From positions 1 to 51,688 of the forward strand of contig CAZDFV010000001.1 in the NCBI GenBank assembly GCA_964504495.1: 51,688 nt of DNA, in the 5' to 3' direction. This stretch comes from an uncultured Rhodothermales bacterium. GTDB lineage: Bacteria > Bacteroidota > Rhodothermia > Rhodothermales > Rubricoccaceae. Made by a program: the position numbers and the translations under genes. The notes beneath the pieces were generated by a model, which was given only the letters and a program-made list of their open reading frames with translations, did not search any database and was not told the DNA's origin. Position 1 is the first letter of the stretch. Each line of letters opens with the position of its first letter. This document shows, in pieces, positions 5,756-34,855 of the stretch.

Positions 5756-5922
5756 AATTAAAAAATAACCCTCCCCCCGTCAAGTGCCGATTCTCGATTT
5801 CGCATGTCACAACAGGCAGTTTCTCCTTTCCACGCCGCGTTGGACGTACGTGCTCTGCCGCGTCTCGCCGGGATGTTCAGCGGCAGTACGCTAGCGGGCG
5901 GCGGACCCTAACGGCGGGCGCA

Positions 5923-7326: not shown

Positions 7327-7333
7327 GGTGGGG

Positions 7334-9136: not shown

Positions 9137-9178
9137 GGTAGGCTTCCCCCGTGGGAGTGAGTTGAGCGGGTGCAGCAC

Positions 9179-9330
9179 GAGTTCCCCTCCTGGACAGGAG
9201 TGGCCAGGGGTGGTGGATCGTCGGAGCACAGCGCCTCGCCCGGCTTCCGAACTCTGCCCGATCTACCCCCTCCCCGGAGCCTGTCCCCGCGTAGGCGGGG
9301 GCGGACTCCCCCTGTCCAGGGGGAGGACTC
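9179..9330. repeat. REP-doublet / MITE-like palindromic element, copy 1
   Basis: Imperfect terminal inverted repeats (GAGTTCCCCTCCTGGACAGG ... CCTGTCCAGGGGGAGGACTC); 9262-9329 is the exact reverse complement of 22699-22766. Confidence 0.85.
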
Positions 9331-9421
9331 GTGCGTGGCCGTCGTGCCAGACGTCACCGCGTGAGGGCTCCGCCAGCCAGAAACGGGAGTGTGGAGGCGG
9401 GGGCCGTACGGAATCATCCGG

Positions 9422-12166: not shown

Positions 12167-13665
12167 CAGCTGTCGGGCGTGTTCCAGCGGTCCGGGACCG
12201 TCGTGTTCGGGTTGTAGTTCGGGTTCGGGCGCGGCGTCCGGGCGCCCTGGGCGTCGAGGGCCGCCTCGAGCTGCGCCAGGAGGCGCGCGACGTCGTCAGG
12301 ACGCTCGGCCGAGAGGTCGGTCGTCTCACCCGGGTCGGCGGCGAGGTCGTAGAGCGCCGTCTCGTTCTGGTCGAGCCGCTGGACCAGCTTGAGGTCGCCC
12401 TCGCGGATCGACCGGGCCGGGCGCGTCCCCTGCGGGCTGTAGTGGGGGAAGTACCACGTCAGCGCGTCGCGCATCGGGGGCGCGCCGGACGTGAGGAGGC
12501 CGTAGAGGCTGGCGCCCTCCACGCCCGGCGGCGTCGGCGCCCCGATCCAGTCGGCGACGGTGGGGAGGAGGTCCATGTTCGTGACCGGGACCTCGCTTGT
12601 GGCGCTCCGCACGCCCGGGCCCCACGCGATAAAGGGGACGCGCGTGCCGCCCTCCCACAGGTACCCCTTCCCGGCCCGGAGCGGGCCGTTCGCCGTCGCC
12701 GGCGTGTGCGCCGCGAACGCCGGCACCTCCTCCACGCTCAGGCCGCCATTGTCGGAGAGGAACACGACGAGCGTCTCGTCCGCCAGGTCCAGCCGGTCGA
12801 GCGCGGCCAGCAGCCGGCCCATGTTCCGGTCGATCGCCTCGATCATGGCCGCGTACTCGGGGTTCTCGAACCCGTAGTCGCCCGCGGCCGCCTTCGCCTG
12901 GTACTTCTGCACGAGGTCCGGCGGCCCCTCGATGGGGACGTGCGGGGCGTAGTAGGCGAGGTGGAGGAGGAACGTCGTGTCGGCGTGGGCCTCCAAAAAC
13001 TCGATGGCCTCCTCGGTCAGCCGATGGGTCAGGTACTCCCCCTCGCGCGCCGGGTCGATGGGCTCGCCGAGGAGGTCCTCGGTCGGGTTTCCGGTCAGGT
13101 ACGGGTAGAAGAAGGTCGGCGGGAGGCCGCGCCCGCTCCCCCCGACGTTGACGTCGAACCCGTGGTCCTGGGGGAGCGAGTTCTGGCCGGCGTAGCCCAG
13201 GTGCCACTTCCCGACGTGCGCGGTCACGTAGCCCTCGGCCGCCGCCAGCTCGGCGACGGTCGTCGGCTCGTGCGGGAGGTGCGGGGCCTGCTCCGGTGGG
13301 ACGAGGCGCTGCCACGGCTCGACCGGCGGGCGCCCCCGGAAGTGCTCGGTGATGTTGAGCGCGACCGGCGAGCGGCCCGTCATGAGCGCCGCCCGCGACG
13401 GCGAGCAGATCGGCGAGGCCGCGTAGCCGTCGGTAAAGCGGAGCCCCTCGGCCGCCATCCGGTCGAGGTTCGGCGTCTCGTGGAACCGGTTGCCGTACGC
13501 CCCGAGGTCGTGCCACCCCATGTCGTCGGCCTGGACGAGGACCACGTTGAGCGGCCCACTGGCGGCCGGCGGCGGCGGCGGCCGGTCGACGGGCGCCTCG
13601 ACGACGGGGTTGTTGGAGCACGCCGCGAGCGCGGCGAGGAGGGCGAGGGCGGCGGCGCGGCGCAT
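12166..13665 (-). CDS. S1 sulfatase, lipoprotein
   Basis: NVVLVQADDMG, CSPSRAALMTG, GKWHLG, SDNGG, GKGYLWEGGTRVP; lipobox LAAC. Confidence 0.94.
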   Translation of the reverse strand: MRRAAALALLAALAACSNNPVVEAPVDRPPPPPAASGPLNVVLVQADDMGWHDLGAYGNRFHETPNLDRMAAEGLRFTDGYAASPICSPSRAALMTGRSPVALNITEHFRGRPPVEPWQRLVPPEQAPHLPHEPTTVAELAAAEGYVTAHVGKWHLGYAGQNSLPQDHGFDVNVGGSGRGLPPTFFYPYLTGNPTEDLLGEPIDPAREGEYLTHRLTEEAIEFLEAHADTTFLLHLAYYAPHVPIEGPPDLVQKYQAKAAAGDYGFENPEYAAMIEAIDRNMGRLLAALDRLDLADETLVVFLSDNGGLSVEEVPAFAAHTPATANGPLRAGKGYLWEGGTRVPFIAWGPGVRSATSEVPVTNMDLLPTVADWIGAPTPPGVEGASLYGLLTSGAPPMRDALTWYFPHYSPQGTRPARSIREGDLKLVQRLDQNETALYDLAADPGETTDLSAERPDDVARLLAQLEAALDAQGARTPRPNPNYNPNTTVPDRWNTPDS

Positions 13666-13744: not shown

Positions 13745-15328
13745 CTAGTAGCCCGCGTTCTGGGTCGCGTTCGGGTTCCGCTGGAGCTCCGAGAGCGGGA
13801 TCGGGTAGAGCACCTCCGGCTCCCCCGTGATCGGGTGCGTCGTGACCTTGGCCGGGTCGATCGTCACCCCCTGCGGCGCGAGCACGTCGGTCAGGGTCCC
13901 CCAGCGGTTGAGGTCGAACAACCGCTTGAACTCGAACGCCAGCTCCAGCCGGCGCTCGCGGCGGACGGCCTCGATGGCCTCGGCCTGGTCGTCGTCGCCG
14001 TCGCTGAACTCGTCGCCGAGCGGGTCGAGCCCGGCCCGCTGGCGGATCTGGTTGACGAGGTCGACGGCCGCGCCCGTCTGGCCGAGCTCGGCGAACGCCT
14101 CGGCCCGCATGAGGAGGACCTCCGCGTAGCGGAAGACGACGATGTTGAACGAGGTCTCGTTGTTGCCGATGTTCGAGTACCACTTCCGCACGAACCACTC
14201 GCGCTCGCCGCGCGACTCCGTGACCGGGTTCCCGGACGCCCCGAACTTGTCGAACGTGACGACGAACCGGGGGTCGCCGTCCTCGTACGCCTGGATGATC
14301 GCGTTGGGCCCGTAGGCGCCCGTCTCGAAGTCCGGGTAGTCGTTGTCGGTCGGGAGGATCTGGTTCTGGCCGTCGCGCGTGCCGCGCGGCGTGAACGCGA
14401 CGCGGATAAAGGACTTCGGCCCGTCCCCGAGCGCCGAGTACTGGACCTCGAAGATGGACTCCGGCCCGTTCTCGAGCGAGGCGTCGAGGAGGAGCCCGTA
14501 GAAGTTCTCGACGTAGCCCTCGCTGTCGTTCAGGGACCCCTGGAGGAGCGCGTACCGCCCGTCGAGGAGCGGCTCGGTCACGTCGAGCACGTCGTCCCAC
14601 TCCTCGAGCGTGAGGTGGACCTTCGCCAGCAGCGTCCGGGCCGCCCCGCTCGTGGCCCGGCCCGTCTCGTCGGCGAGCGCGTTGGCGTCGTCGCCGTAGC
14701 TCACCGGGAGGAGGTCGACGGCCCGCCGGAGGTCGTTCTTGATAAAGTCGTAGACGGCCGGGACCGGGTCGCGCGGGCGCTGCGCCTCGCTGACCTCGTC
14801 GATCTCGACCGACTCGTCGTAGATCGGGACCTCGCCGAAGAGCCGGACGAGGTTGAAGTAGTAGAACGCCCGGAGGAACAGGGCCTCGCCGCGGAGCTGG
14901 CCCTTGAGCTCGGCGTCCGCCTCGCCGTCGCCGAAGTCGATCTCTGCCTCGCGGCCGAGGTAGTAGTTGATCCGGGAGATGTGGGTCAGGCTCGGGTTCC
15001 AGACGTTCCCGAGCTGGGCCTGCGTCCCGTCGATGTCCCGCGTCTTGAGCCCCTGGAAGCTCTGAGCGAACGGCCACCCGTCGTCGGTCCCGCTCTCGAC
15101 GAGGTTCGGGACGGCCCCGTTGTAGAGGCCCGGGAGCGCCCCGTAGAGGCTGTTGACGTACTGGATGGCCCCCCGGGGGTTCGAGAGCTGGGCGTCGAGC
15201 GTCTGGACGTTGAACGCCTCGGTGTCGAGGGCGGAGTCGCAGCCGGCGACGGCGAGCACGGCCGAGAGCGCGAGCGCGGCGCGGCGGACGGGCGCCCACC
15301 GGGCGCGGGGAGAGCGGAGTCGGGTCAT
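13745..15328 (-). CDS. susD: SusD/RagB family glycan-binding lipoprotein
   Basis: ATG 15328 with lipobox VAGC; GEALFLRAFYYFNLVRLFGEVP, FRYAEVLLMRAEA, ERRLELAFE, QNAGY end. Confidence 0.94.
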   Translation of the reverse strand: MTRLRSPRARWAPVRRAALALSAVLAVAGCDSALDTEAFNVQTLDAQLSNPRGAIQYVNSLYGALPGLYNGAVPNLVESGTDDGWPFAQSFQGLKTRDIDGTQAQLGNVWNPSLTHISRINYYLGREAEIDFGDGEADAELKGQLRGEALFLRAFYYFNLVRLFGEVPIYDESVEIDEVSEAQRPRDPVPAVYDFIKNDLRRAVDLLPVSYGDDANALADETGRATSGAARTLLAKVHLTLEEWDDVLDVTEPLLDGRYALLQGSLNDSEGYVENFYGLLLDASLENGPESIFEVQYSALGDGPKSFIRVAFTPRGTRDGQNQILPTDNDYPDFETGAYGPNAIIQAYEDGDPRFVVTFDKFGASGNPVTESRGEREWFVRKWYSNIGNNETSFNIVVFRYAEVLLMRAEAFAELGQTGAAVDLVNQIRQRAGLDPLGDEFSDGDDDQAEAIEAVRRERRLELAFEFKRLFDLNRWGTLTDVLAPQGVTIDPAKVTTHPITGEPEVLYPIPLSELQRNPNATQNAGY

Positions 15329-15339
15329 CGGAGGCGTCT

Positions 15340-18300
15340 TTAGAGCGTGACGTTGAGGCGGACCCCGACGGTCTTGGCGATCGGGTACGTGGTGAGGTCG
15401 AGCCCGGGCGAGAGCGGGGCCGAGGCCGCGTCGAGGTTCCCGCTCCCGTCCCGGGCCCCGCTCGACGCCTCGGGGTCGTAGCCGGTGTAGTCGGTGAACG
15501 TGAGGAGGTTGGTCCCGATCAGGGAGACCTGGGCGCGCTGGGCGCCGACGAGGCCGGCGTACCGGCCGGGCACCGTGTAGGTCAGCCGGACCGTCCGGAG
15601 CCGGACGAAGTCGGCGTCCTGGATGAAGAAGTCGGACGGGAGCGCGTTGATGTAGCCGCGCCGGCCCTGGTACGCCCGGGGGATGTCGGTGTCCTGGTTC
15701 TCCGGCGTCCAGCGGTCGAGGACGGCCGCCCGCTTGTTGATGTTCGAGTCGCCCGAGATCCCGAACATGAGCGACGTGTCGAAGAGCTTCCGCCCGAAGG
15801 CGTAGGTGAAGAGCGTCTCGAACTCGAGCGGCCCGAACGTGAGCACGTTCGTGAGCCCCCCGAACGCCTGCGGGAGCCCGCTCCCGAGGAACACCCGGTC
15901 GGCGTCGTCGATGACGCCGTCGCCGTTGACGTCGCGGTAGATCGTGTCCCCGGGCTGGACGCCCAGGACCCCGCCGCGGGCCGTCAGCCCGGCGCACGAG
16001 TTGGTCGCCTCGTCGTACTGGTCCGTCGAGCAGATCCCGACAAAGTCCCACCCGTAGAGGTCCCCGATGGCCCCGCCGATGAGCGTGCTGTTGACCGAGC
16101 CGAACTGGAGCGGGCCGTCGTTGAGGTTCCGGCCGGGGAGCCCCTGGTTCTCGCCGAGGACGTCCTCCCGGATGTCCTCGACCTCGTTGTGGTTGTACCC
16201 GAACGTGAGCGTCGAGCGCCAGTCGAACCGGTCGGCGTCGACGGGGATGACGTCGAGGGCGAACTCGAACCCCTGGTTCAGGACCGACCCGACGTTCCCG
16301 GCCACGGCCCCGACCGGGAACGCCGGCGGAGCCGGGACCGACCCGAGGACGTCCTGGGTGAACCGGTTGTAGTAGTCGGCCGTGAGCCCGACCCGGCCGT
16401 CGAGGACGGTGAGGTCGAACCCGAGGTCGAACTGGCGGATGGTCTCCCAGCCCACGCCGTCGGGGAGGGCGATGTTGTTGATCGGGGTCTGCTGGACGCC
16501 CTCCTCGCCGAAGGCGACGAACCCGCTCCCGACGCGCGTCAGGAAGGCGTTGTCGCCGATCCCGTCGCGGTCGCCGAGGTACCCGAAGCTGCCCCGGAGC
16601 TTGAAGTCGTTGACGACGTCGAGGTCGCGGAGGAACGGGGCGTTCGAGGCCCGCCAGGCGAGCCCGACGGCCGGGAGCGCGGCCCACCGCCGCTCGGGCG
16701 AGAACTTCGAGGACCCGTCGACCCGGACGGTCCCCGTCAGGAAGTACGTGTCGGCGTAGTCGTAGGTCAGCCGGCTGAAGTACGAGATGAGCCGCTGGCT
16801 CTGCTCCCGGGCGCTCGTCCCCGTCCGCTCCGGCTGAAGGCTGACCTGCGTGAGCTCGTTGTTCGTTCCCCCCGTGCCCGAGACGAACGCGAACTCGAGG
16901 TAGTCCTCCTGGAAGCTCGTTCCGGCGAGGACCTCGACGTCGTGGGCCCCGAACTCCCGGTCGAACGTGAGCGTGTGGTCGGTGAAGTAGTTGTACCCGA
17001 GCTGGTCGAAGGCCCGGACGGTCACGAACTCCCGCTGCTGGCGGGCCCGGTCCCGGGTCGGGAGGAAGTCGTCGGCCGTGTTCGCCGAGAGGTTGGCCGA
17101 GGCGCTCCCCCGGTAGCGGAGGTCGAACGGGAGCCGGTAGGTGAAGGCCGTCGTCGCGATAAACTGCTGCCACTGCCGGTCCAGCTCGTTCTCGAGGAGG
17201 TCGGCGACCGGGTTCTGCGGGAACGGGTTCGAGTAGATGGCCCCGAGCTCGGGGTCGTTCACGTCGTAGGCCGCGAACTCGCCGTCCTCGGTGTACGGTT
17301 GCTCCCAGGGGTACTTGTAGAGGGCGTCGCGGAGCGAGGCCCCGAACGTCTGGTCGTTGGCGACGACGCTCCCCCACTGGCGCGACCCGTTGAGCCGGAC
17401 GTCGATCGTGGCCCGGTCGCTGAGGTCGACGACAGAGTTGAGCCGGATCGACGCGCGCTGGATGTCGGTCCCGATGATCCGGCCCTCGACGTCCTCGTAG
17501 TTCCCCGACGCCGCGAACTGGACGGCCCCGGCGCTCCCCCGCGCGCTCACGTTGTACCGCTGGCTCAGGCCGGTCTGGGTCACGGCGTCCTGCCAGTCGG
17601 TGTCGTTGGCCGCGAGGAACGTGGGGTCCTGGAGCGGGGCCGGGAGCTCGAACGTCGGGTTGGCCCCCTGCGAGTTCCGGACGGCGTCGCGCCGGTACTC
17701 GGCGAGCTCGGCCGAGTTGAGCATGTCGAGCTGGCGGATCGGCGAGGCCGCGTCGAACTCGGTCGAGAACTCGACGGCCGGCTCGAGCCCGGCCCCCGAC
17801 TTCGTCGTGATGATGACGACCCCGTCGGCCGCGCGGACGCCGTAGATCGAGGCGCTGCTCGCGTCCTTGAGGACCGAGATCGAGGCGATGTCCTGCGTGT
17901 TGAGCGTCGCGAGGAACGAGTTGTCCGTCGGCTCGAGCGGGATCCCGTCGACGATGTAGAGCGGGCGGTTCGTGCTCCCGAACGACCCGACGCCCCGGAT
18001 GTCGATCTGGAAGTTGCCCTGGAGGTCGCCCGAGTTCTGCTGCACGCTGACCCCGGCCACGCGCCCGGCGATGGCCTCCTCGAACGAGACGAGCGGCTTG
18101 TTCTCGATCTCCTCGGCCGTGATGGCCCCGACCGACCCGGTCAGGTCGCGGACCTCGCTCGTCCCGTACCCGATGACGACGACCTCGTCGCCGGTGTAGT
18201 TCTGCGGGCTCAGCGTCACGTTGATCTCGGCGCGTCCCAGGATCGGGATGGCCTGCGTCTCGAACCCGACGTAGGAGAACTGGAGCGAGTCGGTCTCGGA

Positions 18301-18630
18301 CGGGGCCGTGATCTCGTACCGCCCATCAATGTCCGTCGCCACGCCGACCGTCGTTCCCGGCACGACCACGTTGACGCCGGGGAGCGGCTGGCGGTCGTCG
18401 GCCGAGATGACCCGGCCGGTGACGGTAAAGTCCCGGGCCGGGCGCCACAGGTCGGCCCGGGCGCCAGCAGCGAGGGCGCGCTCGGCGGCCGGGCGGAGCA
18501 GGACGGACGTCTCCGGCTCGGCGGGCGCCACCGGATCGGCGAGGCCCTGCGCGCTGGCGGGGGCCGCAAGCAGGGCGAGTGCGGCGACGAGCCAGAAGAG
18601 GCCGCGGGGTGAGCGGGGGGAGGGTGCCAT
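15340..18630 (-). CDS. susC: SusC/RagA family TonB-dependent transporter
   Basis: VTGRV...LPGVNVVV domain, VVVIGYG, PLYIVDG, SVLKDASSASIYG..AADGVVIITTK plug, DGSSKF, C-terminal GVRLNVTL. Confidence 0.96.
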   Translation of the reverse strand: MAPSPRSPRGLFWLVAALALLAAPASAQGLADPVAPAEPETSVLLRPAAERALAAGARADLWRPARDFTVTGRVISADDRQPLPGVNVVVPGTTVGVATDIDGRYEITAPSETDSLQFSYVGFETQAIPILGRAEINVTLSPQNYTGDEVVVIGYGTSEVRDLTGSVGAITAEEIENKPLVSFEEAIAGRVAGVSVQQNSGDLQGNFQIDIRGVGSFGSTNRPLYIVDGIPLEPTDNSFLATLNTQDIASISVLKDASSASIYGVRAADGVVIITTKSGAGLEPAVEFSTEFDAASPIRQLDMLNSAELAEYRRDAVRNSQGANPTFELPAPLQDPTFLAANDTDWQDAVTQTGLSQRYNVSARGSAGAVQFAASGNYEDVEGRIIGTDIQRASIRLNSVVDLSDRATIDVRLNGSRQWGSVVANDQTFGASLRDALYKYPWEQPYTEDGEFAAYDVNDPELGAIYSNPFPQNPVADLLENELDRQWQQFIATTAFTYRLPFDLRYRGSASANLSANTADDFLPTRDRARQQREFVTVRAFDQLGYNYFTDHTLTFDREFGAHDVEVLAGTSFQEDYLEFAFVSGTGGTNNELTQVSLQPERTGTSAREQSQRLISYFSRLTYDYADTYFLTGTVRVDGSSKFSPERRWAALPAVGLAWRASNAPFLRDLDVVNDFKLRGSFGYLGDRDGIGDNAFLTRVGSGFVAFGEEGVQQTPINNIALPDGVGWETIRQFDLGFDLTVLDGRVGLTADYYNRFTQDVLGSVPAPPAFPVGAVAGNVGSVLNQGFEFALDVIPVDADRFDWRSTLTFGYNHNEVEDIREDVLGENQGLPGRNLNDGPLQFGSVNSTLIGGAIGDLYGWDFVGICSTDQYDEATNSCAGLTARGGVLGVQPGDTIYRDVNGDGVIDDADRVFLGSGLPQAFGGLTNVLTFGPLEFETLFTYAFGRKLFDTSLMFGISGDSNINKRAAVLDRWTPENQDTDIPRAYQGRRGYINALPSDFFIQDADFVRLRTVRLTYTVPGRYAGLVGAQRAQVSLIGTNLLTFTDYTGYDPEASSGARDGSGNLDAASAPLSPGLDLTTYPIAKTVGVRLNVTL

Positions 18631-18683: not shown

Positions 18684-18712
18684 AGTCGGGACGCCCCCGG
18701 GGCGACCCCTAC
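18684..18712 (-). promoter_or_regulatory. putative ECF-sigma promoter of susC operon
   Basis: Minus strand GTAGGGG-N17-CGACT, about 55 bp upstream of susC ATG; motif recurs at three other starts in the locus. Confidence 0.6.
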
Positions 18713-18775
18713 ATCCGGTAGGGCTTTTTTGGGTGCCCCGCCCCGGGTCGGCGCGTCTCGATCGGCCCGCGGTCG

Positions 18776-21109
18776 CTACTCGGCCACGAGCCGCCAGCGG
18801 CCCGGGCCCACCCACAGCCGGACGGCCTCGGCGTCGGCCCCGTCGAGCGAGACGCCGGCCGGCGGCGTCCCATGCCCGTCGGCCGACCACGCCACGGCGT
18901 CGCCGACCCGGACGACGCGGCCGACGCGGGGGACCTCGACGAGCGCGCGCGCCCCGTCCGGGACGGTCACGCGGAGTGCGAACGACCCCTCCCGCTGGCG
19001 GGCCTCGACGGCGATCTCGCCCCGGATGGACGGGACCACGGCCGCGGCGTGTGCCAGCGACCCGAGCCGGGGCGCCACGCGGAACGTGGCGTAGCCGGGC
19101 GCGATGGGCTCGACGCCAGCCACGACCTGCGAGAGCAGCGTGAGCGGGCCGCCGCTCCAGGCGTGGTTGTAGGTGCCGCCGCCGAACCCCTCGGCCCCGA
19201 TCCCCCACCCCTCCCAGAGCGTCGTGAGCGGGCTCTCGATCATGGCCGCGTAGCGACTCTTGAGGCGCGCGAGCGCGTCGTCCACGTAGCCCATCTGCAT
19301 GAGGGCCTCGGCCACGTACTTCTCGAAGTAGGGGCTCGCGTGGCGCTCTCGCAGCAGGACCTCGCGGATCGCGGGGTGCTTGTCCGGGCCGGCGAGCCCG
19401 GCGACGACGGCGAGCGCGTTCCCCCGGTCGTCGGTCGGCCCCTCGTGGCCGGGCGAGCGGTAGGCCGTGCCCGTCCAGAACCTTTCGTTGAACGCCTCGG
19501 CCAGCCGGTCGAGCGCGGCGTCGATGGCGGGCACGTCGGCGTCGTGGTCGGTGAGGCGCGCCATCTCGCGCTGGCCCTGGAGGGCGAGCGCGTACCACCC
19601 GTTGTAGAGGAGCGGCATGTCCTTGTGGTCGCCCCAGTCGCCCCACGTCCACCCGCCCGGGCGCGGGACGACGAGGCCGTCGGCGTCGGTCTCCCACACG
19701 GCGAGGTAGTCGCGGACGGCGGGGTAGACGCGGCGGATCGTCTCGGCATCGCCGGTGTGGAGGTAGTACGTCCAGAACCCGTAGTGGCCGACGGACGCCA
19801 GCATCTGCGTCGGGAGCTCGGCGCTCCACATCGACGGCGTCGAGGGGACCGGCGAGTAGAGCGTCGAGTCGGGCCGCTGCCACGCCGCCAGCTCGAGGAT
19901 CCCCTTCCGGCCGAGGGCGTCGGCGCTCCGCGAGAGGGCGTAGAAGCTCTCGCCCATCTCGAGGACGACGTCGCCCCACCACTGGGCCCGCTCGCGGTCC
20001 GGGCAGTCCATGTACGTGTCGCGCATGGTGACGTAGAGCGTCCGGAGCGACTTCTGCCACAGCGTGTCGAGCGCCGGGTCGGACGACGCGAACGAGCCCG
20101 TGAAGTCCGTGTCGTAGCCCGTCTCGCGGAAGGCGAGCCCGTGGACCGTGACGCCCGCGGGGATCGCGTACCGGACGACGTGGCCGTTCATCCACCCCGG
20201 CGGCTCGGCCTGCTGGCGGCCCGCGCGCGTAACGACCTCCGAGCGGACGTTGTAAGCGCTCCCGCCGCGGTAGTTGTCCGTCCGGACGTCGATGAGCGCG
20301 CCGGCCGGGGCCTCGACGTCGAGCCAGGGCGTGATCTGCGCGTTGTAGGGGAGCGCGACGAGGACCGTGTCGCCGGTCGAGACGAACGGGAACGCCGGGG
20401 CGTCGAGGTACGGACGGAGGCCGAAGTCGCGGAACGGCGGGATCGGCCGGCGGACGAGCGGGCCCCACGGGTCGGCCCCGGCCTCCGCCAGTGCGACGGC
20501 CGCAGGCCACGCGCCGTCGTCGTAGCCGGGGTCGGCCCACCCGTCGAGCTCCGCGCGGGCGTCGTAGCGGACGTTCGTCTCGGACAGGCGGAAGTTGGGG
20601 TGCGGCGGGCCGGTGCCGCCGTAGGCGGGGTGCCGCCGCGCCCGCCAGTCGAGCGCGACGGGCGCCCCGTCCGCCTCCAAGTCGAGCAGGAGGCCGGGCG
20701 CGTCGGTGTTGTAGTGGCTGAACCCGTCCTTCCCCCACGTCCAGACGAGGACGGCCACGGTGTTCTCGCCGGCCCGGAGGTGCGGGCCGAGGTCGACGGG
20801 GTCGTAGTAGCTCGCGCCGAGCCACGGGCCGCGCTTGAGCCCGCCCTCGCGGACGACGAGGTCGCCGTTCACCCACAGCCAGTACCGCGAGTCGACGGCG
20901 ACCCGGGCCTCGGCCTCCCGGGGCGCCTCGTCCAGCCGGAACGTCGTGCGGGCCGCGGTCCAGACGTTCTGCGAGTCGGCGGGCGTGAGGTCGGCGGCGC
21001 CGACCCAGCCGGCCGTCCACACGGTGTCGGCGTCCCAGACGGCGTGGGGCTGGGCGCTGGCGGGCGCGGCGAGGAGGACCGCCAGCGCGGCGAGGAGGAC
21101 GGGGCGCAT
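18776..21109 (-). CDS. alpha-L-rhamnosidase-like glycoside hydrolase, GH78
   Basis: ATG 21109 with signal peptide; DSRYWLWVNG, MDCPDRERAQWWGD, TTLWEGW, NHAWSGGP. Confidence 0.9.
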   Translation of the reverse strand: MRPVLLAALAVLLAAPASAQPHAVWDADTVWTAGWVGAADLTPADSQNVWTAARTTFRLDEAPREAEARVAVDSRYWLWVNGDLVVREGGLKRGPWLGASYYDPVDLGPHLRAGENTVAVLVWTWGKDGFSHYNTDAPGLLLDLEADGAPVALDWRARRHPAYGGTGPPHPNFRLSETNVRYDARAELDGWADPGYDDGAWPAAVALAEAGADPWGPLVRRPIPPFRDFGLRPYLDAPAFPFVSTGDTVLVALPYNAQITPWLDVEAPAGALIDVRTDNYRGGSAYNVRSEVVTRAGRQQAEPPGWMNGHVVRYAIPAGVTVHGLAFRETGYDTDFTGSFASSDPALDTLWQKSLRTLYVTMRDTYMDCPDRERAQWWGDVVLEMGESFYALSRSADALGRKGILELAAWQRPDSTLYSPVPSTPSMWSAELPTQMLASVGHYGFWTYYLHTGDAETIRRVYPAVRDYLAVWETDADGLVVPRPGGWTWGDWGDHKDMPLLYNGWYALALQGQREMARLTDHDADVPAIDAALDRLAEAFNERFWTGTAYRSPGHEGPTDDRGNALAVVAGLAGPDKHPAIREVLLRERHASPYFEKYVAEALMQMGYVDDALARLKSRYAAMIESPLTTLWEGWGIGAEGFGGGTYNHAWSGGPLTLLSQVVAGVEPIAPGYATFRVAPRLGSLAHAAAVVPSIRGEIAVEARQREGSFALRVTVPDGARALVEVPRVGRVVRVGDAVAWSADGHGTPPAGVSLDGADAEAVRLWVGPGRWRLVAE

Positions 21110-21142
21110 CAGGGGCGGCGGGGGCTCGGGAGTCTCCCTAAC

Positions 21143-21171
21143 AGTCGGGCCGGCCCCGGGCGTACCCCGAC
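21143..21171 (-). promoter_or_regulatory. putative ECF-sigma promoter of second GH78
   Basis: Minus strand GTCGGGG-N17-CGACT, about 35 bp upstream of ATG 21109. Confidence 0.55.
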
Positions 21172-21198
21172 GCCTCGACTCCATCTCCTTCCCCCGCC

Positions 21199-22650
21199 AT
21201 GCCCAACGACGCCGCCGACCGAACGCCCGCCCCGAGTGCCACCGTCGGCCTGTTCGGGATCGGGCTCGACACCTACTGGGACCAGTTCGACGGGCTGAAG
21301 GGGCGGCTCGAAGGGTACCAGGCCCGGATCGCCGGCCGGCTGGCGGAGACCGGCGCCGAGGTCGTCGACGCCGGGCTCGTGGACTCGGTCGAGGCGGCCC
21401 ACGCGGCGGCCGAGACGTTCCGCCAGCGGGGCGTGGACGTCGTGTTCCTCTACGTCTCGACCTACGCGCTCTCGGCGACGGTCCTGCCCGTCGTCCAGCG
21501 CACGGGCGCGCCGGTCGTGGTCCTCAACCTCCAGCCGACGGCGGCCATCGACTACGCCCGGTTCAACGGGCTGAAGGACCGGCACGCGATGACGGGCGAG
21601 TGGCTCGCGCATTGTCAGGCGTGCGCCGTGCCCGAGGTGGCGTCCGTCTTCCTCCGCGCCGGCGTCCCGTTCCACCAGGTGACCGGCACGCTCGACGACG
21701 CCGAGGCGTGGGCCGAGATCGACGCCTGGACGGCGGCGGCCCACGCGGCGGCCGCCCTGCGCGAGGCGCGGCTGGGCATCCTCGGCCACTACTACAACGG
21801 GATGCTCGACATCTACACCGACCCGACGATGCAGTCCGTCGCGTTCGGGACGCACATCGTCCACCTTGAGATGGACGAGCTGCAGCGCCTCCGCGACGAC
21901 GCGACGGACGAGGACGTGGACGCGGCCGTCGAGCGCGTCCGCCAGTCGTTCGACGTGTCGCCCGAGTGCGCCGAGGCCGAGGTCCGCCGCGCGGCGCGGA
22001 CGGCCGTCGCCCTCGACCGGCTGGCGGACGCGCACGGCCTGGGCGCCCTCGCCTATTACTACGAGGGCGTCGCGGGCGGCGTCTACGAGGACCTCGTCGG
22101 CTCGGTCATCGCCGGGACGTCGATGCTCACGGCGCGGGGCGTCCCGGTCGCGGGCGAGTGCGACGTCAAGAACGTCCAGGCCATGAAGGTCCTGGACACG
22201 CTCGGGGCCGGCGGGTCCTTTACCGAGTTCTACGCGCTCGACTTCGACGACGACGTCGTCCTCATGGGCCACGACGGGCCGGGTCACATCCGGATCGCGG
22301 AGGGCAAGCCTCGCCTGAAGCCGCTCGCCGTCTACCACGGGAAGCCGAGTCACGGGCTCTCGGTCGAGATGTCCGTCAAGCCCGGGCCGGTCACGCTCCT
22401 CGCCGTCGTCCAGACGGCCCAGGGGCAGCTCAAGCTGCTCGTGGCCGAGGGCGAGGCCGTTCCGGGTCCGATCCTCGAGATCGGCAACACGAACTCGCGC
22501 TACCGGTTCTCGCTGGGCGTCAAGGGGTTCATGGACGCCTGGTGCGCCGAGGGCCCGCACCACCACTGCGCCGTCGGCACGGGCCACCACGGGGCGACGC
22601 TCGCGCGGCTGGGGGCGCTCCTCGGCCTGGAGGCCGTCCAGATCTGCTGA
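21199..22650 (+). CDS. L-fucose/L-arabinose isomerase family protein
   Basis: GLFGIGLDTYW N-terminus, AGECD, FTEFY, MGHDGPGH, GPHHHCAVG. Confidence 0.88.
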   Translation: MPNDAADRTPAPSATVGLFGIGLDTYWDQFDGLKGRLEGYQARIAGRLAETGAEVVDAGLVDSVEAAHAAAETFRQRGVDVVFLYVSTYALSATVLPVVQRTGAPVVVLNLQPTAAIDYARFNGLKDRHAMTGEWLAHCQACAVPEVASVFLRAGVPFHQVTGTLDDAEAWAEIDAWTAAAHAAAALREARLGILGHYYNGMLDIYTDPTMQSVAFGTHIVHLEMDELQRLRDDATDEDVDAAVERVRQSFDVSPECAEAEVRRAARTAVALDRLADAHGLGALAYYYEGVAGGVYEDLVGSVIAGTSMLTARGVPVAGECDVKNVQAMKVLDTLGAGGSFTEFYALDFDDDVVLMGHDGPGHIRIAEGKPRLKPLAVYHGKPSHGLSVEMSVKPGPVTLLAVVQTAQGQLKLLVAEGEAVPGPILEIGNTNSRYRFSLGVKGFMDAWCAEGPHHHCAVGTGHHGATLARLGALLGLEAVQIC

Positions 22651-29171: not shown

Positions 29172-29187
29172 GGGTCGTGGTTGGTTC

Positions 29188-30935: not shown

Positions 30936-30964
30936 AGACGGCCCGCGCCCGGCGCCACCCCTAC
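30936..30964 (-). promoter_or_regulatory. putative ECF-sigma promoter of permease-rha operon
   Basis: Minus strand GTAGGGG-N17-CGTCT, about 25 bp upstream of ATG 30910. Confidence 0.6.
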
Positions 30965-31037
30965 GCCCGACCCCGTTTTGCCCCGACCCGCTGCCGGCCC
31001 CCGCGTAGGCCGCCGGCGCCGGCGCGCCGAGGGCGCG

Positions 31038-32024
31038 TCAGGCGCCGCCTGGGGCGTCCGGCTCGGGGAGGTCGCGGGCGCACCGGAACCCGACGTGTGC
31101 GGCCGACGACTCGGCCGTCGCGTGGCTCCGGGCGCTCACGCGGTAGCCGTGGCAGTAGGCCGGGTGGCACAGGAACGAGCCGCCGCGCTGGGCCCGCTCC
31201 GGCTCGCCGGTCGGGCCGGCCGGGGCGCCCGGGCCCGTCCCCTCGTCTTCGCCGAGCGGGTACGGGCGGTACCACGAGGCCGTCCACTCCCAGACGTTCC
31301 CGCCCATGTCCTCGAGGCCGAGCGGCGTCCGGCCGAACGTGCCGACCGGGCTCGTGCCGCCGGGGTAGCCGTCGGCTCCGTCGTCGCCGCCGGGGAACGC
31401 GCCGGTCCAGGTGTTGGCCCGGAGCCGGCCGCCCTCGTCGAGCGCGTCGCCCCAGGCGTAGGGGCTCCGGTCGTCATCGGCGCCGCGCGCGGCGTGCTCC
31501 CACTCGACCTCGGTGGGGAGCCGCCCGGCCCCGCTGGCGGCCGCTCCGCCCGCGGCGCCGTCCCACGCGCAGAAGGCGGCGGCGTCGTTGAACGACACCT
31601 GCGTGACGGGGTGGCCGTCGGGCGCCGCCGGGCCGTCCGGGCCGAACGGGCGCCGCCAGTCGGCGCCGGGGACGAGCGACCACGCCATCGTCCCTTGGTC
31701 GAGGACGGCCCCGTCGCCGAACGCCTCGGCCTGCGTCTCGTACCCCGTGGCCTCGACGAACTGGCGGAAGCGGGCGACGGTCACGGGCGCCCGGTCGAGG
31801 AGGAACGGCTCGACCTCGGCCCGGAACGCCGGCCGCTCGTGCGGGAGGCCGCCCTCGCCCCGGAGCACGCCGACCGTCGTCCTCCCCCCAGGGACGTAGA
31901 CCATCCCGTCGGGGGCCTCGACGTCGAGAGAGGCGCTGCTCGTCGGCTCCGGGTCGGACGCCGGCGGCTCCCCGCCGCACGCGGCGAGGGCGAGGGTCAG
32001 GACCAGGGGGAGCGTGCGCGTCAA
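31038..32024 (-). CDS. formylglycine-generating enzyme (SUMF1/FGE family), lipoprotein
   Basis: HPVTQVS, RLPTEVEWE, GLEDMGGNVWEW, RGGSFLCHPAYCHGYRVSAR with both catalytic Cys, GFRCA; probable TTG start with lipobox LAAC. Confidence 0.92.
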   Translation of the reverse strand: MTRTLPLVLTLALAACGGEPPASDPEPTSSASLDVEAPDGMVYVPGGRTTVGVLRGEGGLPHERPAFRAEVEPFLLDRAPVTVARFRQFVEATGYETQAEAFGDGAVLDQGTMAWSLVPGADWRRPFGPDGPAAPDGHPVTQVSFNDAAAFCAWDGAAGGAAASGAGRLPTEVEWEHAARGADDDRSPYAWGDALDEGGRLRANTWTGAFPGGDDGADGYPGGTSPVGTFGRTPLGLEDMGGNVWEWTASWYRPYPLGEDEGTGPGAPAGPTGEPERAQRGGSFLCHPAYCHGYRVSARSHATAESSAAHVGFRCARDLPEPDAPGGA

Positions 32025-32100
32025 GGGGCCGAGGGGGAGCGCGCGGAGGATACTGACGGGTAGAGTGCTGCGAGAAATCGTCCGTGCGCAGACGGATGGT

Positions 32101-32128
32101 GTAGGGGCCGGGGCGCCGTCGGCGGACT
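32101..32128 (+). promoter_or_regulatory. putative ECF-sigma promoter of T9SS-sorted protein
   Basis: GTAGGGG-N16-GGACT, about 60 bp upstream of ATG 32191. Confidence 0.5.
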
Positions 32129-32190: not shown

Positions 32191-33159
32191 ATGCGCACTC
32201 TGCTACTCCTCCTCGCGGCCGCCTTCCTGGTCCCGGCGGCCCACGCCCAAACCGTCCTCTTCGACTTCGAGGGGTTCGGCGGCAGCACCGAAGGCTGGGC
32301 CCCCGACGTCCCGCCCGACACCGATCTCCCCGAAGGCGATCGGTCTCTCGTCCGCGCCGTTGATCAGAAGCTGATCGGGTTCGACGGCCCGACCCCCCTC
32401 TTTATCCCCCCCTATGAGGGGTCATACCTGCTCGAGGCCGTGCCGAACCGGCCAATCCCAGCCAATGCGTTCCGTGGCATGAAGTACACCTGGGCGACGG
32501 GTCAGGACTGGACGGGCACGCCAGTCCTGAAGATGGCCGCGTCGATGCAGGCCCGCGGCGCGAACAGCGAGCGCCATGAGTTCCGCATCCGCGTCATCTC
32601 GGGGACGGGTGCGGACGCGGACACCACCGAGATGATGTACATCGGCCTTAAGTCTGAGGGGGCCGACGACACCATCGACAACAACTCGTTCGTGAACGAC
32701 TGGGAGGTCCTTGAGTTCGACCTCAGCGGGTACAGCGGGGTCAACGCGATCACCTCCATCGAGGCCGCCGGCCGCCACGTGGACGACGGGTCGAACAACA
32801 CACCGGACTCGGGCATGGGCACCTGGGGTGGCCTCGTCCAGATAGACTCCGTGGCCGTCGACGTCCAGAACACGTCGGTCGAGGGCGAGCCCGGGCTGGC
32901 GGCGCTGAGTGACGTGTACCCGAACCCGTCCGCCTCGCGCGCCCAGGTTGGGATCGCCGTCGAGACGGCCCAGCGCGTGACGGCGACGGTCCACGACGTC
33001 CTCGGCCGGACCGTGGCGACGGCGTTCGACGGCCCGCTCGCGCCGGGCGCGACCGCGCTCCTCGGGCTCGACACGTCGCGCTTGGCACCGGGGACCTACG
33101 TGCTCCAGGTCCGCGGCGAGACGTTCACGGCCTCGCGCCGGCTGACGGTGGCCCGCTAG
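32191..33159 (+). CDS. secreted protein with T9SS C-terminal domain; unknown beta-rich (CBM-like) N-terminal domain
   Basis: Signal peptide (PAAHA-Q), LFDFE start, VQIDSV end, YPNP...DVLGR...GTYVLQV CTD. Confidence 0.85.
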   Translation: MRTLLLLLAAAFLVPAAHAQTVLFDFEGFGGSTEGWAPDVPPDTDLPEGDRSLVRAVDQKLIGFDGPTPLFIPPYEGSYLLEAVPNRPIPANAFRGMKYTWATGQDWTGTPVLKMAASMQARGANSERHEFRIRVISGTGADADTTEMMYIGLKSEGADDTIDNNSFVNDWEVLEFDLSGYSGVNAITSIEAAGRHVDDGSNNTPDSGMGTWGGLVQIDSVAVDVQNTSVEGEPGLAALSDVYPNPSASRAQVGIAVETAQRVTATVHDVLGRTVATAFDGPLAPGATALLGLDTSRLAPGTYVLQVRGETFTASRRLTVAR

Positions 33160-33221: not shown

Positions 33222-34187
33222 CTAGGGCCCCCCGGCGTCGAGGAGCGCCCGGGCCGTCGCGTCGTCGGTGACGAGGACGTCGATGAGCCGGCCGGCCAGG
33301 GCGCCGCGGATGGCCCCGACTTTGGCCGCGCCCCCGGCCACGCCGACGACGCAGTCGACGGCCGCCAGCGTCTCGAGGTCCACGCCGACGATCCGGTCGT
33401 CGAGCGAGGTGGGCACCGGCCGCCCCGCGGCGTCGAAGAACCGGAGGGCCACGTCCCCGACGGCCCCGCCCTCGCGGAGCTCGGCCGGGAGCGAGTCGGG
33501 GAGGGCCACCTCGCGGGACAGGGTCCCGTCGCCGAGGACCGGGTTGGTCTCGAGCGAGCCGATCCCAACGAACGCCGTCGTCATCGCCGAGAAGGCGTCG
33601 AGGGCCGCCCGGATCTGGGGGTCGGCGGCGAGGACGGCCCGGGCCTCCGCGCTGGCGACGACGCCGGGGGCCTGGAGGAGCCGGAGGTCGGCCCCGAGCG
33701 CCGTCGCCAGCCGGCGCGGGAGGTCCGCGGCGTGGGCCTCGGCCAGGGGCGGCCCGACGCCGCCCAGCGTCTGGACGACCGTGACCCCCTCGGTCTGGCG
33801 CGGGACGACGGCCTTGACCATCTCGCGGAGCGTGGTCCCCCAGGTGACGCCGACGACGGCCCCGGGCGCCAACGTCCGCCGGAGGAACCCGGCCGCGGCG
33901 GCGCCGAGCCGGGCCGCCTGCTCGTCCCCGGCGGCGTCGGCCACGACGGCCTCGCGGAGCCCGAACCGCTCCTCGAGCGCGCCCTCCAGGTCGGCCGCCA
34001 GCCCGTCGACGTGGGCGACGGTGATCTGGACGATGCCCCGCTCGCGGGCCTCGCGGATCATCCGGGAGACGGTCGGCCGGGAGACGCCGAGGCGGTTGGC
34101 GATCTGCTGCTGGGTCTGCCCCCGGAGGTAGTAGAGCGCCCCCACCTTCGCGAGTGTGCGGGCCTGGGCGTCGGGGGGAGGGGGCAT
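33222..34187 (-). CDS. SorC/DeoR-family sugar-binding transcriptional regulator
   Basis: LYYLRGQTQQQIANRLGVSRPTVSRM HTH; GVTWGTT, FVGIG, GAVGD, GVAGG..K, LVTD. Confidence 0.93.
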   Translation of the reverse strand: MPPPPDAQARTLAKVGALYYLRGQTQQQIANRLGVSRPTVSRMIREARERGIVQITVAHVDGLAADLEGALEERFGLREAVVADAAGDEQAARLGAAAAGFLRRTLAPGAVVGVTWGTTLREMVKAVVPRQTEGVTVVQTLGGVGPPLAEAHAADLPRRLATALGADLRLLQAPGVVASAEARAVLAADPQIRAALDAFSAMTTAFVGIGSLETNPVLGDGTLSREVALPDSLPAELREGGAVGDVALRFFDAAGRPVPTSLDDRIVGVDLETLAAVDCVVGVAGGAAKVGAIRGALAGRLIDVLVTDDATARALLDAGGP

Positions 34188-34225
34188 GGGGGAGTCTAGC
34201 ACAGGCCGGGGCGCTGCACCGTGTC

Positions 34226-34254
34226 TTGACACAGCGGCCGGAAGCGGTTACAAT
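34226..34254 (+). promoter_or_regulatory. sigma70 promoter for ECF sigma gene
   Basis: TTGACA (34226-34231), 17-bp spacer, TACAAT (34249-34254). Confidence 0.8.
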
Positions 34255-34255
34255 G

Positions 34256-34287
34256 TGAACGTCTGGTTATCAGTGAACATCCGTTCA
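34256..34287. promoter_or_regulatory. candidate operator(s) for the SorC/DeoR regulator
   Basis: Perfect TGAAC-ATCC-GTTCA (34274-34287) plus degenerate TGAAC-GTCT-GGTTA (34256-34269), directly downstream of the -10 box. Confidence 0.6.
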
Positions 34288-34294
34288 GACGTCC

Positions 34295-34855
34295 ATGACG
34301 ACCACCGCTACCCCGCCCGCCCCCGCCTCCGACGGCCCGTTGACGGACCGTGGTGCGTTCGCGGCCATCTACAGCGCCCACGCCCCGTCATTAGTCGGGT
34401 TCATCACGAGAAAGGTGGGCGACGCCGAGCTGGCCGAGGACATCCTCCACGACTTGTTCCTCGGCATCTGGGCGCGGTTCGACTCGTGGGAGGTCCGCGG
34501 CGACCTCAAGACGTACCTGTTCTCCGCGGCCCGGAACCACGTCTGGAGCCACTACGCCAAGCAACGCGTCCGCCGGGACTACGCCGACGCCGAGCGGGCC
34601 ACGGCCGCGCGGAGCGAGCGCCCCGAGGCCGTCGAGCGGATCCAGGCCGAGCGGCTCGGCCGGGCGGTGGGGCGGTGGATCGGCGAGCTCCCGGAGCGGC
34701 GGCGCGAGGTCTTCGAGCTCTCGCGCTACGAGCACCTGACCTACCAGGAGATCGCGGACCGGCTGGGGATCTCCGTCAAGACGGTCGAGACCCAGATGAG
34801 CCGGGCGCTCCGCCACCTCCGCGAGCGGCTCGAGGCGTACGAGGCAGCGTCGTAG
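34295..34855 (+). CDS. RNA polymerase ECF sigma factor (FecI-like, Bacteroidota PUL type)
   Basis: AEDILHDLF..IW, LKTYLFSAARN, LPERRREVFELSR, LTYQEIA..LGISVKTVETQMSRAL. Confidence 0.94.
   Translation: MTTTATPPAPASDGPLTDRGAFAAIYSAHAPSLVGFITRKVGDAELAEDILHDLFLGIWARFDSWEVRGDLKTYLFSAARNHVWSHYAKQRVRRDYADAERATAARSERPEAVERIQAERLGRAVGRWIGELPERRREVFELSRYEHLTYQEIADRLGISVKTVETQMSRALRHLRERLEAYEAAS

What the first reader, a model, noticed from the sequence alone, without database searches (positions are those of the whole stretch)
33222..34855. Candidate two-tier cascade: SorC-type repressor gating an anti-sigma-less ECF sigma that drives a PUL
Seen: the SorC/DeoR gene is divergent from a FecI-like ECF sigma. 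In the ~107-bp gap a near-consensus TTGACA-N17-TACAAT promoter points at the sigma and is followed by a perfect TGAAC-N4-GTTCA palindrome and a degenerate copy covering the expected +1. No intact fecR follows the sigma. Known: PUL ECF sigmas are normally held by FecR-like anti-sigmas signalled through SusC, while SorC/DeoR proteins sense cytoplasmic sugar phosphates. Inference: outer-membrane signalling has been replaced by cytoplasmic sensing (e.g. rhamnulose-1-phosphate), which releases sigma transcription and turns on the locus. I do not know of this wiring being described for a PUL.
Basis: partly seen in the sequence, partly recalled or inferred. Interest (0 to 1): 0.82.

Follow-up and report, generated by a model that had tools for sequence, protein, structure and literature searches.

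The report
Sugar repressor gating an orphan sigma
In three related environmental bacteria a sugar-phosphate-type repressor gene faces an alternative sigma-factor gene that has no anti-sigma partner beside it, and conserved DNA sites indicate that the repressor likely switches the sigma off while the sigma likely switches on about eight rhamnose/galactose-polysaccharide operons, a two-step control not found described for such loci in the papers searched.

Summary
Observation confirmed. A SorC/DeoR-subfamily gene is divergent from a TIGR02985 (ECF240-like) sigma. TTGACA-N17-TACAAT and two TGAAC-N4-GTTCA-type sites 18 bp apart lie between them; the perfect site is unique in the genome. The same module, without fecR, occurs in all 3 of 285 order genomes that carry this sigma clade. 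In 10 sigma-less relatives the repressor and operator sit directly before rhamnose/PUL genes, so the sigma occupies the operator-controlled slot. A promoter motif learned blind from distant, mostly FecR-paired sigmas (GT[AC][AG]GGGT-N16-GT[AC]T) is matched upstream of all five transcription units of the window PUL and three units on other contigs (GH3/GH2, lutA, SSS-galK). These sites are conserved in the two relatives, and a pre-registered prediction for a distant susC held. None of these units has an operator. A genome-wide LacI/cre-like box also overlaps the sigma's -10. Best reading: repressor → orphan ECF → rhamnose/galactose regulon (about 0.75). All binding, the effector and the lack of a trans-acting anti-sigma are untested; the motif alone is weak genome-wide. 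The logic resembles Fur→OrbS; this wiring was not found in print for a PUL.

The parts
33222..34187 (-). SorC/DeoR-subfamily repressor (321 aa), likely rhamnose-regulon repressor
   Evidence: PF04198+HTH; DeoR 8r7y best PDB hit with near-identical recognition helix; 80% and 73% identical in G008 and G137
34193..34198 (-). TAGACT, probable -10 box of a leaderless sorC transcript (5 nt before ATG; 6 nt in G008; not seen in G137)
   Evidence: genome-wide peak of TAnnnT 5-6 nt before ATG; inferred
34226..34254 (+). sigma70-type promoter TTGACA-N17-TACAAT for the ECF gene
   Evidence: conserved in G008/G137; this promoter type is enriched in the genome, 14 sense against 0-2 shuffled among 2226 upstream regions
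34240..34251 (+). GGAAGCGGTTAC, LacI/cre-like box overlapping spacer and -10; candidate global carbon-control input
   Evidence: AAGCG-TTAC conserved in all three; 17 distinct sites in the genome, 16 intergenic, reversed-pattern control 1; family label from recall
34256..34269 (.). operator 1 (degenerate TGAAC-N4-GGTTA), over the predicted +1
34274..34287 (.). operator 2 (perfect TGAACATCCGTTCA), 18 bp after operator 1
   Evidence: unique in G000, G008 and G137; consensus of 13 sites from sigma-less loci TGAACATATGTTCA
34295..34855 (+). orphan ECF sigma (TIGR02985, ECF240-like), 186 aa, no extension, no adjacent anti-sigma
   Evidence: clade of 28 clusters; dN/dS 0.29-0.50
30936..30965 (-). 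predicted ECF promoter of the permease-rhaA-rhaB-rhaD-rhaT operon (GTAGGGGT-N17-GTCT)
   Evidence: conserved in G137 and G008; shuffle p 0.005; rank 1 of 2329
18684..18713 (-). predicted ECF promoter of susC-susD-sulfatase-GH78-GH30-like-sulfatase
   Evidence: rank 2
21143..21172 (-). predicted ECF promoter of the second GH78
   Evidence: rank 3; family PWM only 3.8 bits, p 0.15
21107..21135 (+). predicted ECF promoter of the AraA-like isomerase (overlaps the GH78 start codon)
   Evidence: p 0.02; rank 14
32100..32128 (+). predicted ECF promoter of the T9SS-secreted protein (weakest site)
   Evidence: rank 15; family PWM 3.0 bits, p 0.22
5885..5913 (-). ECF-type site right after the last sulfatase, at the place where G008 has its GH3/GH2 promoter
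15340..18630 (-). SusC without STN transducer domain (CarboxypepD domain starts at residue 70)
   Evidence: TIGR04056; no STN at E<=1; in 3 FecR-linked TBDTs that domain starts at 120-157 and 2 of 3 hit STN
13745..15343 (-). SusD
   Evidence: PF07980, PF14322
22985..30910 (-). NCS1-like permease, 68-aa membrane protein, rhaA isomerase, rhaB kinase, RhaD/RhaEW aldolase-dehydrogenase, rhaT
5923..13665 (-). sulfatase, GH78 rhamnosidase, T9SS GH30-like protein, sulfatase
18776..21109 (-). second GH78 rhamnosidase
21199..22650 (+). L-arabinose-isomerase-like protein (under cut-off)
31038..31970 (-). FGE-sulfatase domain protein (start uncertain; no clear ECF site)
32191..33159 (+). T9SS-secreted protein, CBM-like fold predicted; beside sorC in all three genomes
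   Evidence: atlas structure hits TM 0.55-0.67, lead only

Best explanation
The SorC-type protein likely binds two tandem operators over the start of the divergent sigma gene and likely represses it, and the sigma, which has no anti-sigma gene beside it, would on release transcribe about eight predicted ECF promoters that serve the rhamnose/galactose polysaccharide locus. Shown: gene layout, promoter and operator sequences, their conservation in three genomes, co-travel of the operator with SorC, and the motif before each transcription unit. Inferred steps: (1) a SorC tetramer bound to 34256-34287 blocks the housekeeping promoter, as for B. subtilis DeoR/CggR. (2) Basal uptake yields a cytoplasmic sugar phosphate, most likely L-rhamnulose-1-phosphate (about 0.5; DHAP or another phosphosugar possible), which releases it. 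(3) A global LacI/cre-like factor at 34240-34251 adds a carbon-status input (about 0.5). (4) The sigma level alone sets output at GT(A/C)(G/A)GGG(T)-N16/17-(G/T)(T/A)CT promoters: susCD unit, GH78b, isomerase, permease-rha operon, T9SS protein, GH3-GH2, lutA unit, SSS-galK. One operator pair thus controls a regulon split over both strands and several loci.
For: Module conserved in 3 of 3 genomes with the sigma clade among 285. 13 of 19 close SorC clusters share an exact longest-contig length with a sigma-clade cluster, an indirect sign of co-location. In 10 sigma-less loci SorC and operator-like sites face susC, rhaA, rhaM, GH78, GH79 or the permease directly. The B. subtilis DeoR half-operator ATTGAACAAAATTTCAAT has the same geometry (PMC11229326 passages), and R34/R39 of its helix are kept. 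Family promoter learned by unsupervised EM from 77 regions downstream of distant sigmas, 64 of 86 followed by FecR. Against shuffles, Fisher p 8e-5 (G000, 5 units), 2e-4 (G137, 5), 4e-4 (G008, 2); controls 0.59 (8 other window genes) and 0.68 (10 sigma-less first genes). The prediction written held for G008 susC, 48 kb from its sigma (6.9 bits), and three unsought sites (14.0, 10.2, 15.3 bits) appeared before GH3, lutA and SSS. A matrix from G137/G008 sites alone ranks the eight G000 orthologous units 1, 2, 3, 4, 11, 14, 15, 19 of 2329 genes. SSS orthologues: site in 3 of 3 sigma genomes. Motif core 54 of 60 identical G000/G137 against spacer 32 of 72. No operator near any target unit. SusC lacks STN. 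Sigma intact, dN/dS 0.29-0.50.
Against: No binding or expression data. The family matrix is weak genome-wide: the two best sites rank 319 and 444 of 7.85 million positions and drop under 6 bits with a spacer penalty, because 53 of 54 training sites have the shorter spacer while 3 of 5 window sites have the longer one; 18 of 2204 genes score 9.3 or more. The GH78b and T9SS sites are not significant singly (p 0.15, 0.22), and the G008 GH78b and isomerase sites were seen only by eye, under 5 bits. The clade matrix and footprint test use orthologous, partly hand-picked sites and are not independent. One of 7 sigma-less SSS orthologues (G015) has a good site at the same distance, and G004 a weak one; the exact pattern has 3, 4 and 9 matches in three sigma-less genomes. 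G000 is 94% complete in 594 contigs and has a truncated FecR-like gene; G008 has 3 FecR and G137 4 FecR_C hits. FecR N-termini can be needed for sigma maturation (PMC2709373 section 17). The three genomes are kin.
Confidence: 0.75

Rival explanations
1. The cascade is real but double-gated: an unlinked FecR-like or other anti-/pro-sigma protein also binds this sigma, so it is not truly anti-sigma-less.
For: Most relatives are FecR-paired (64 of 86). FecR genes exist elsewhere in G008, G137 and, truncated, G000. FecR N-termini can be required for maturation, and non-cognate contacts were seen in two-hybrid tests (PMC2709373 passages).
Against: All 3 FecR of the complete G008 genome lie in their own sigma-fecR-TBDT blocks. 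The C494 gene follows its own sigma. The PUL SusC has no STN. No gene is conserved downstream of the sigma.
Confidence: 0.12
2. SorC represses the sigma gene, but the PUL promoters are read by the housekeeping or another ECF sigma; this sigma has other targets or is a leftover and the motifs are relics of an older FecR system.
For: Motif weak genome-wide; a good site in sigma-less G015; background matches in sigma-less genomes.
Against: Sites lie before 8 of 8 units in G000, 8 of 8 in G008 (two by eye) and 7 of 7 found in G137, with diverged spacers. This is the only over-cut-off TIGR02985 sigma in G000. In G015 the SSS gene follows an FGE gene 74% identical to the window's, which suggests a remnant of this module. 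Without the sigma the rha genes would have no link to their repressor.
Confidence: 0.08
3. The palindromes are mainly a sorC autoregulation or activator site, or belong to another factor, and the sigma is constitutive.
For: Divergent regulators often autoregulate (general knowledge); several sigma-less loci also have sites close to sorC.
Against: The sites lie over and downstream of the sigma promoter's +1, about 60 bp beyond the probable sorC -10 box, and follow SorC across families.
Confidence: 0.05

Closest known systems
ECF240 (ex-ECF10) sigma / FecR / SusC trans-envelope switches of Bacteroidota PULs (PMC7826278 supplement part 24; PMC2709373 passages and section 17)
   Same: TIGR02985 sigma; sigma gene expressed from a housekeeping promoter; susCD and glycoside hydrolase targets; same promoter motif as FecR-paired relatives
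   Different: No FecR at +1, no TBDT at +2, SusC without STN; sigma divergent from a SorC repressor with operators over its +1; regulon includes cytoplasmic catabolism and unlinked units
Fur → OrbS/MbaS orphan ECF control of Burkholderia siderophore clusters (PMC8908255 passages)
   Same: A repressor box in a sigma70 promoter of an anti-sigma-less FecI-clade ECF that alone serves the cluster promoters; a second repressor (MftR) on the same promoter
   Different: Signal is iron through global Fur; here a local SorC-family phosphosugar sensor, an ECF240-like sigma and polysaccharide genes. OrbS is also reported to carry its own iron sensor (PMC9023288, listing only)
B. subtilis DeoR/CggR SorC-family repressors (PMC11229326 passages)
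   Same: HTH plus sugar-phosphate-binding domain, two half-operators, TGAAC half-site
   Different: They repress catabolic operons directly; here the only operator pair sits on a sigma gene. The lysine of DeoR's VVQLKGG is Leu here; that it is the covalent-effector lysine is recalled
RhaR regulators of L-rhamnose catabolism, AraC/DeoR/LacI families (PMC3870299 passages)
   Same: Local regulator of rhaA/B/EW/T genes
   Different: In the passages seen the DeoR-family motifs are 10-11-bp direct repeats and no SorC-type palindromic regulator or sigma tier appears
ECF203 (TetR neighbour, no anti-sigma), ECF130/201 (HTH neighbour), ECF282 sigma-AntA (PMC7826278 section 14)
   Same: ECFs thought to be controlled at transcription by a neighbouring regulator
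   Different: Other ECF groups; mostly uncharacterised; no PUL link described
dCas12f-sigmaE RNA-guided systems (PMC12259090 passages)
   Same: Bacteroidota-type ECF that lost FecR and targets susCD
   Different: No dCas12f gene beside the sigma, no C-terminal extension, no conserved downstream RNA; ordinary -35/-10 motif kept

Membership tests
SorC family, DeoR subfamily repressor | N-terminal HTH plus PF04198 sugar-binding domain | tested here: met
   NF053881 208 bits, under its equivalog cut-off 420, so not the DeoR orthologue
SorC family, DeoR subfamily repressor | two half-operators overlapping the controlled promoter | tested here: met
   sequence level only:
SorC family, DeoR subfamily repressor | tetramer binding and release by a sugar phosphate | not testable with these tools
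   WG(T/S/N)T and AGG..K motifs kept in 11 of 11 aligned sequences; their role in phosphate binding is recalled
ECF240-type PUL trans-envelope system | sigma2+sigma4 ECF of the Bacteroidota family | tested here: met
   TIGR02985 over cut-off; the ECF240 group HMM itself was not available, so the group label is inferred
ECF240-type PUL trans-envelope system | FecR-like anti-sigma at +1 | tested here: not met
   absent in 3 of 3 genomes
ECF240-type PUL trans-envelope system | signal-transducing SusC with N-terminal STN domain | tested here: not met
   no STN in G000 or G137 SusC; G008 SusC aligns only from residue 65. The STN model also missed 1 of 3 FecR-linked controls, so domain position is the stronger evidence
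ECF240-type PUL trans-envelope system | ECF-type promoters before susCD and enzyme genes | tested here: met
   predicted sites:
Transcriptionally gated orphan ECF (OrbS/MbaS logic) | repressor box in a sigma70 promoter of the ECF gene, none at target promoters | tested here: met
Transcriptionally gated orphan ECF (OrbS/MbaS logic) | no anti-sigma anywhere in the genome acts on it | tested here: inconclusive
   G008 FecRs all paired; G000 incomplete with a truncated FecR; 3 of 4 G137 FecR_C hits not examined
dCas12f-sigmaE system | adjacent dcas12f and sigma C-terminal extension | tested here: not met

The most novel reading that the evidence does not exclude
A clade of Rhodothermales has rebuilt PUL control as a transcriptional AND gate with fan-out: a SorC rhamnose-phosphate sensor and a global LacI/cre-type carbon regulator both sit on one housekeeping promoter, whose only product is a FecR-independent ECF240-derived sigma that reads at least eight promoters across separate loci. 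That would be a PUL sigma freed from trans-envelope signalling and from any pro-sigma partner, with a mapped promoter consensus for a family whose target motif was reported as not conserved.
Probability: 0.45. Interest if true: 0.8.

Novelty: new variant of a known kind. Interest (0 to 1): 0.7.

Why it matters
PUL ECF sigmas are treated as outputs of SusC-FecR trans-envelope signalling. This locus shows a conserved alternative in which the sigma would be an amplifier under a cytoplasmic one-component repressor, with the simpler direct-repression state preserved in relatives for comparison. It gives exact, testable operator and promoter sequences, a natural test of whether an ECF240-like sigma works without a FecR N-terminus, a downstream-of-sigma promoter consensus usable for predicting PUL regulons, and a compact sugar-inducible sigma switch for an order with little regulatory data.

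Tried and rejected
RNA evidence: no RNA holder listed, and 3 metatranscriptome runs gave only 2 short foreign contigs on FGE; uninformative. The search for related loci in genome contigs returned 6 distant, non-orthologous SorC loci (not used). The metagenome scan returned only 32-44% sigma relatives, no clade member; these became the training set. FecR labels in the tree run were wrong through a script fault; only the topology was used (clade one-sided, SH-aLRT 97, quick tree, no root) and labels were redone. A shared contig length suggested G108 had the sigma; it does not, which shows such matches can mislead. An apparent autoregulatory ECF site at 34169-34197 (rank 10) was rejected: not conserved, and its -10 part is the reverse of the probable sorC -10 box. 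A site before susD (18.1 bits) lies in susC coding sequence and loses its -35 in G008/G137. A fecR remnant or conserved RNA after the sigma: none. Five of 18 SorC matches were left out of the rhamnose count: G037, G089, G281 (kinase/ABC operon), G175 first copy, G141 (partial). lutA not found in G137 or 4 other genomes. No structure or complex prediction was run. Earlier-findings look-ups were empty. Literature searches showed no SorC-gated or FecR-less PUL sigma other than dCas12f systems; most hits were seen as listings only and subscription journals are not covered.
Full report
OBSERVATION. The window holds a rhamnose PUL, mostly on the minus strand, from 5923 to 32000: two sulfatases, two GH78, a GH30-like T9SS protein, SusC/SusD, an AraA-like isomerase, rhaT, RhaD/RhaEW, rhaB, rhaA, a permease and an FGE-domain protein. 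A T9SS-secreted protein, the SorC-type gene (33222-34187, minus) and the ECF sigma (34295-34855, plus) follow. The degenerate copy alone is within chance. Nothing FecR-like follows the sigma. Pfam finds no FecR in the genome, but tblastn with nine FecR sequences from relatives finds one N-terminal piece at the end of contig C494, behind a different sigma; the assembly is 94% complete in 594 contigs. The genus is taken as Rubrivirga from source names on close homologues.

CONSERVATION. The repressor matches 17 of 285 order genomes, 18 loci. The sigma clade (over 300 bits, next best 164) is in 3 of 285: G000, G008 (same genus, one contig) and G137 (another family). In all three it is divergent from sorC, with TTGACA-N17-TAC(AAT/GTT), a degenerate and a perfect operator 18 bp apart, and no shared gene downstream. 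The perfect site is unique in each genome. The protein database holds 27 further sigma-clade clusters (52-78% identity) and 19 close SorC clusters (73-88%); 13 of the 19 share an exact longest-contig length with a sigma cluster. That is indirect; one such coincidence with a genome contig was false. The clade is one side of a branch in a quick tree, and dN/dS is 0.29-0.50, near that of sorC and rhaB (high-GC bias makes these rough).

THE OPERATOR BELONGS TO SorC. In 10 loci without the sigma, sorC faces susC (G026, G142, G107), rhaA (G108), GH79 then rhaA (G035), GH78 (G219, G203), rhaM (G176, G178) or the permease (G175), each with operator-like sites, five of them with a TTGAC-type promoter match. 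Their consensus is TGAACATATGTTCA. Five other loci were set aside as a different context or partial. B. subtilis DeoR is the best solved relative, with an almost identical recognition helix; its left half-operator is ATTGAACAAAATTTCAAT and it binds two half-operators as a tetramer (PMC11229326, passages). In the three sigma genomes the only operator pair in the examined regions sits on the sigma promoter; none lies near a PUL unit. Repression is inferred from the position over +1.

THE SIGMA'S PROMOTERS. Unsupervised EM on 77 regions downstream of distant sigmas (64 of 86 loci followed by FecR) gave TGT[AC][AG]GGGT-N14-[GT][TG]GT[AC]T; no locus site was used. The ECF240 description reports no conserved target motif from searches upstream of the sigma gene (PMC7826278 supplement part 24; that it searched upstream is my reading). 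Scored with this matrix against 1000 dinucleotide shuffles of 300-nt upstream regions, the five G000 units give p 0.004, 0.15, 0.021, 0.005 and 0.22 (combined 8e-5), G137 2e-4, G008 4e-4; 8 other window genes give 0.59 and 10 sigma-less first genes 0.68, the latter anchored approximately. Between G000 and G137 the core is 54 of 60 identical, the spacer 32 of 72, the flank 56 of 150 (sites partly chosen by eye). In G008 the susC unit is 48 kb from the sigma. I noted beforehand that it should keep the motif and lack operators; it does (6.9 bits), the GH78b and isomerase sites are visible but under 5 bits, and three more sites appeared directly before GH3-GH2, lutA and an SSS transporter-galK unit. 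A matrix from 11 G137/G008 sites ranks the eight G000 orthologues 1, 2, 3, 4, 11, 14, 15 and 19 of 2329 genes, three of them on contigs C116 and C465. G137's SSS and GH3 genes carry new sites as well. Against this: genome-wide the family matrix ranks the best two sites only 319 and 444 of 7.85 million and penalises the longer spacer; 1 of 7 sigma-less SSS orthologues (G015) has a good site and 1 a weak one; the exact pattern occurs 3, 4 and 9 times in three sigma-less genomes. G015's SSS follows an FGE gene 74% identical to the window's, which may mark a remnant.

NO TRANS-ENVELOPE CHAIN. SusC starts its CarboxypepD domain at residue 70 with no STN hit; three FecR-linked TBDTs start it at 120-157 and two hit STN. 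The three FecR of G008 lie in their own sigma-fecR-TBDT blocks. A trans partner is not excluded, and FecR N-termini can be needed for sigma maturation (PMC2709373 section 17).

A SECOND INPUT. AAGCG-TTAC in the promoter spacer is conserved in all three genomes. The pattern G[GTA]AA[GA]CG[CG]TT[AT]C has 17 distinct sites in G000, 16 intergenic, several before genes whose N-termini look like TBDTs, sugar transporters and LacI regulators (read by eye), against 1 for the reversed pattern. It resembles LacI/CcpA cre boxes (recalled); the factor is unknown. E. coli-type promoters are used in this genome (14 sense, 4 antisense, 0-2 shuffled), and a TAnnnT peak 5-6 nt before ATG suggests that sorC is leaderless.

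MECHANISM. Most likely: SorC holds the sigma gene off; a cytoplasmic sugar phosphate from basal rhamnose catabolism, probably L-rhamnulose-1-phosphate, frees it; a global carbon regulator may gate the same promoter; the unpartnered sigma then transcribes about eight units for uptake, desulfation, hydrolysis and catabolism of a rhamnose/galactose, probably sulfated, glycan, including lactate use. Confidence 0.75 for the cascade and about 0.5 each for the effector and the second input. Rivals: trans anti-sigma 0.12, relic motifs 0.08, autoregulation only 0.05.

COMPARISON AND NOVELTY. It works like Fur → OrbS/MbaS (PMC8908255, passages) but is built from an ECF240-like PUL sigma and a SorC sensor. 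It fails membership of the canonical ECF240/FecR/SusC switch on two tested features. Transcriptionally controlled ECFs beside TetR or HTH genes are noted for other groups (PMC7826278 section 14); rhamnose regulators described are AraC, DeoR and LacI types (PMC3870299, passages); the other FecR-less Bacteroidota sigmas seen are dCas12f-linked (PMC12259090, passages). Searches did not show this wiring; coverage is limited to open papers, and supplements other than one file of PMC7826278 (cut when stored) were not read. Verdict: real, conserved, a new variant of a known kind; interest 0.7.

Noticed in passing
window 34240-34251 and 16 other G000 sites (C6, C11, C12, C15, C23, C65, C103, C118, C128, C130, C140, C166, C242, C259, C357): A genome-wide LacI/cre-like box GGAAGCG[CG]TT[AT]C, 16 of 17 sites intergenic; a candidate global carbon regulon with unknown regulator.
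   Followed up: partly
L062-L141, L158-L163: Well-conserved promoter TGT[AC][AG]GGGT-N16-GT[AC]T just downstream of TIGR02985-type sigma genes, before fecR: 44 of 59 FecR-followed regions have a confident site.
   Followed up: yes
L004, L049, L003, L050, L051, L052, L048, L055, L059, L053: A SorC-family rhamnose repressor with TGAWCANNTGWTCA operators directly controlling rha/PUL genes in 10 Rhodothermales loci; not among the regulator families in the passages read of PMC3870299.
   Followed up: partly
G000 genome: Peak of TAnnnT boxes 5-6 nt before ATG (47 of 2226 upstream regions), suggesting frequent leaderless mRNAs.
   Followed up: no
window 4704-5913: AT-rich stretch with a 237-aa ORF of no Pfam family, 63% identical to a gene lying between duplicated GH3 starts in G137 C268; it sits behind the ECF-type site at the point where the G008 locus continues into GH3.
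   Followed up: partly
window 9230-9421 and 22651-22984: A shared intergenic repeat (CCCCCTGGACAGGGGGAG... about 70 bp) in opposite orientations, REP-like; also short TAC(C/G)/GGGTAC and ATGCGTG tandem repeats between rha genes.
   Followed up: no
window 27924-29444 vs L143 11849-13372: rhaA is 95% and the 68-aa membrane protein apparently identical between G000 and G137 (different families) while neighbours are 70-89%, hinting at recent exchange or a binning issue in G137 (80% complete, 5% contaminated).
   Followed up: no
L143 1814-4801: In G137 the second GH78 is fused to an N-terminal GDSL/SGNH esterase.
   Followed up: no
L240 1537-4445 (G015): FGE gene plus SSS transporter with an ECF-type site but no sorC or sigma in the genome: possible remnant of the regulon.
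   Followed up: partly
window 29441-30910 and 29238-29444: Highly conserved 489-aa NCS1-like permease (69-92% across rha loci) with a 68-aa membrane partner, no Pfam family; a candidate rhamnose or oligosaccharide transporter.
   Followed up: no
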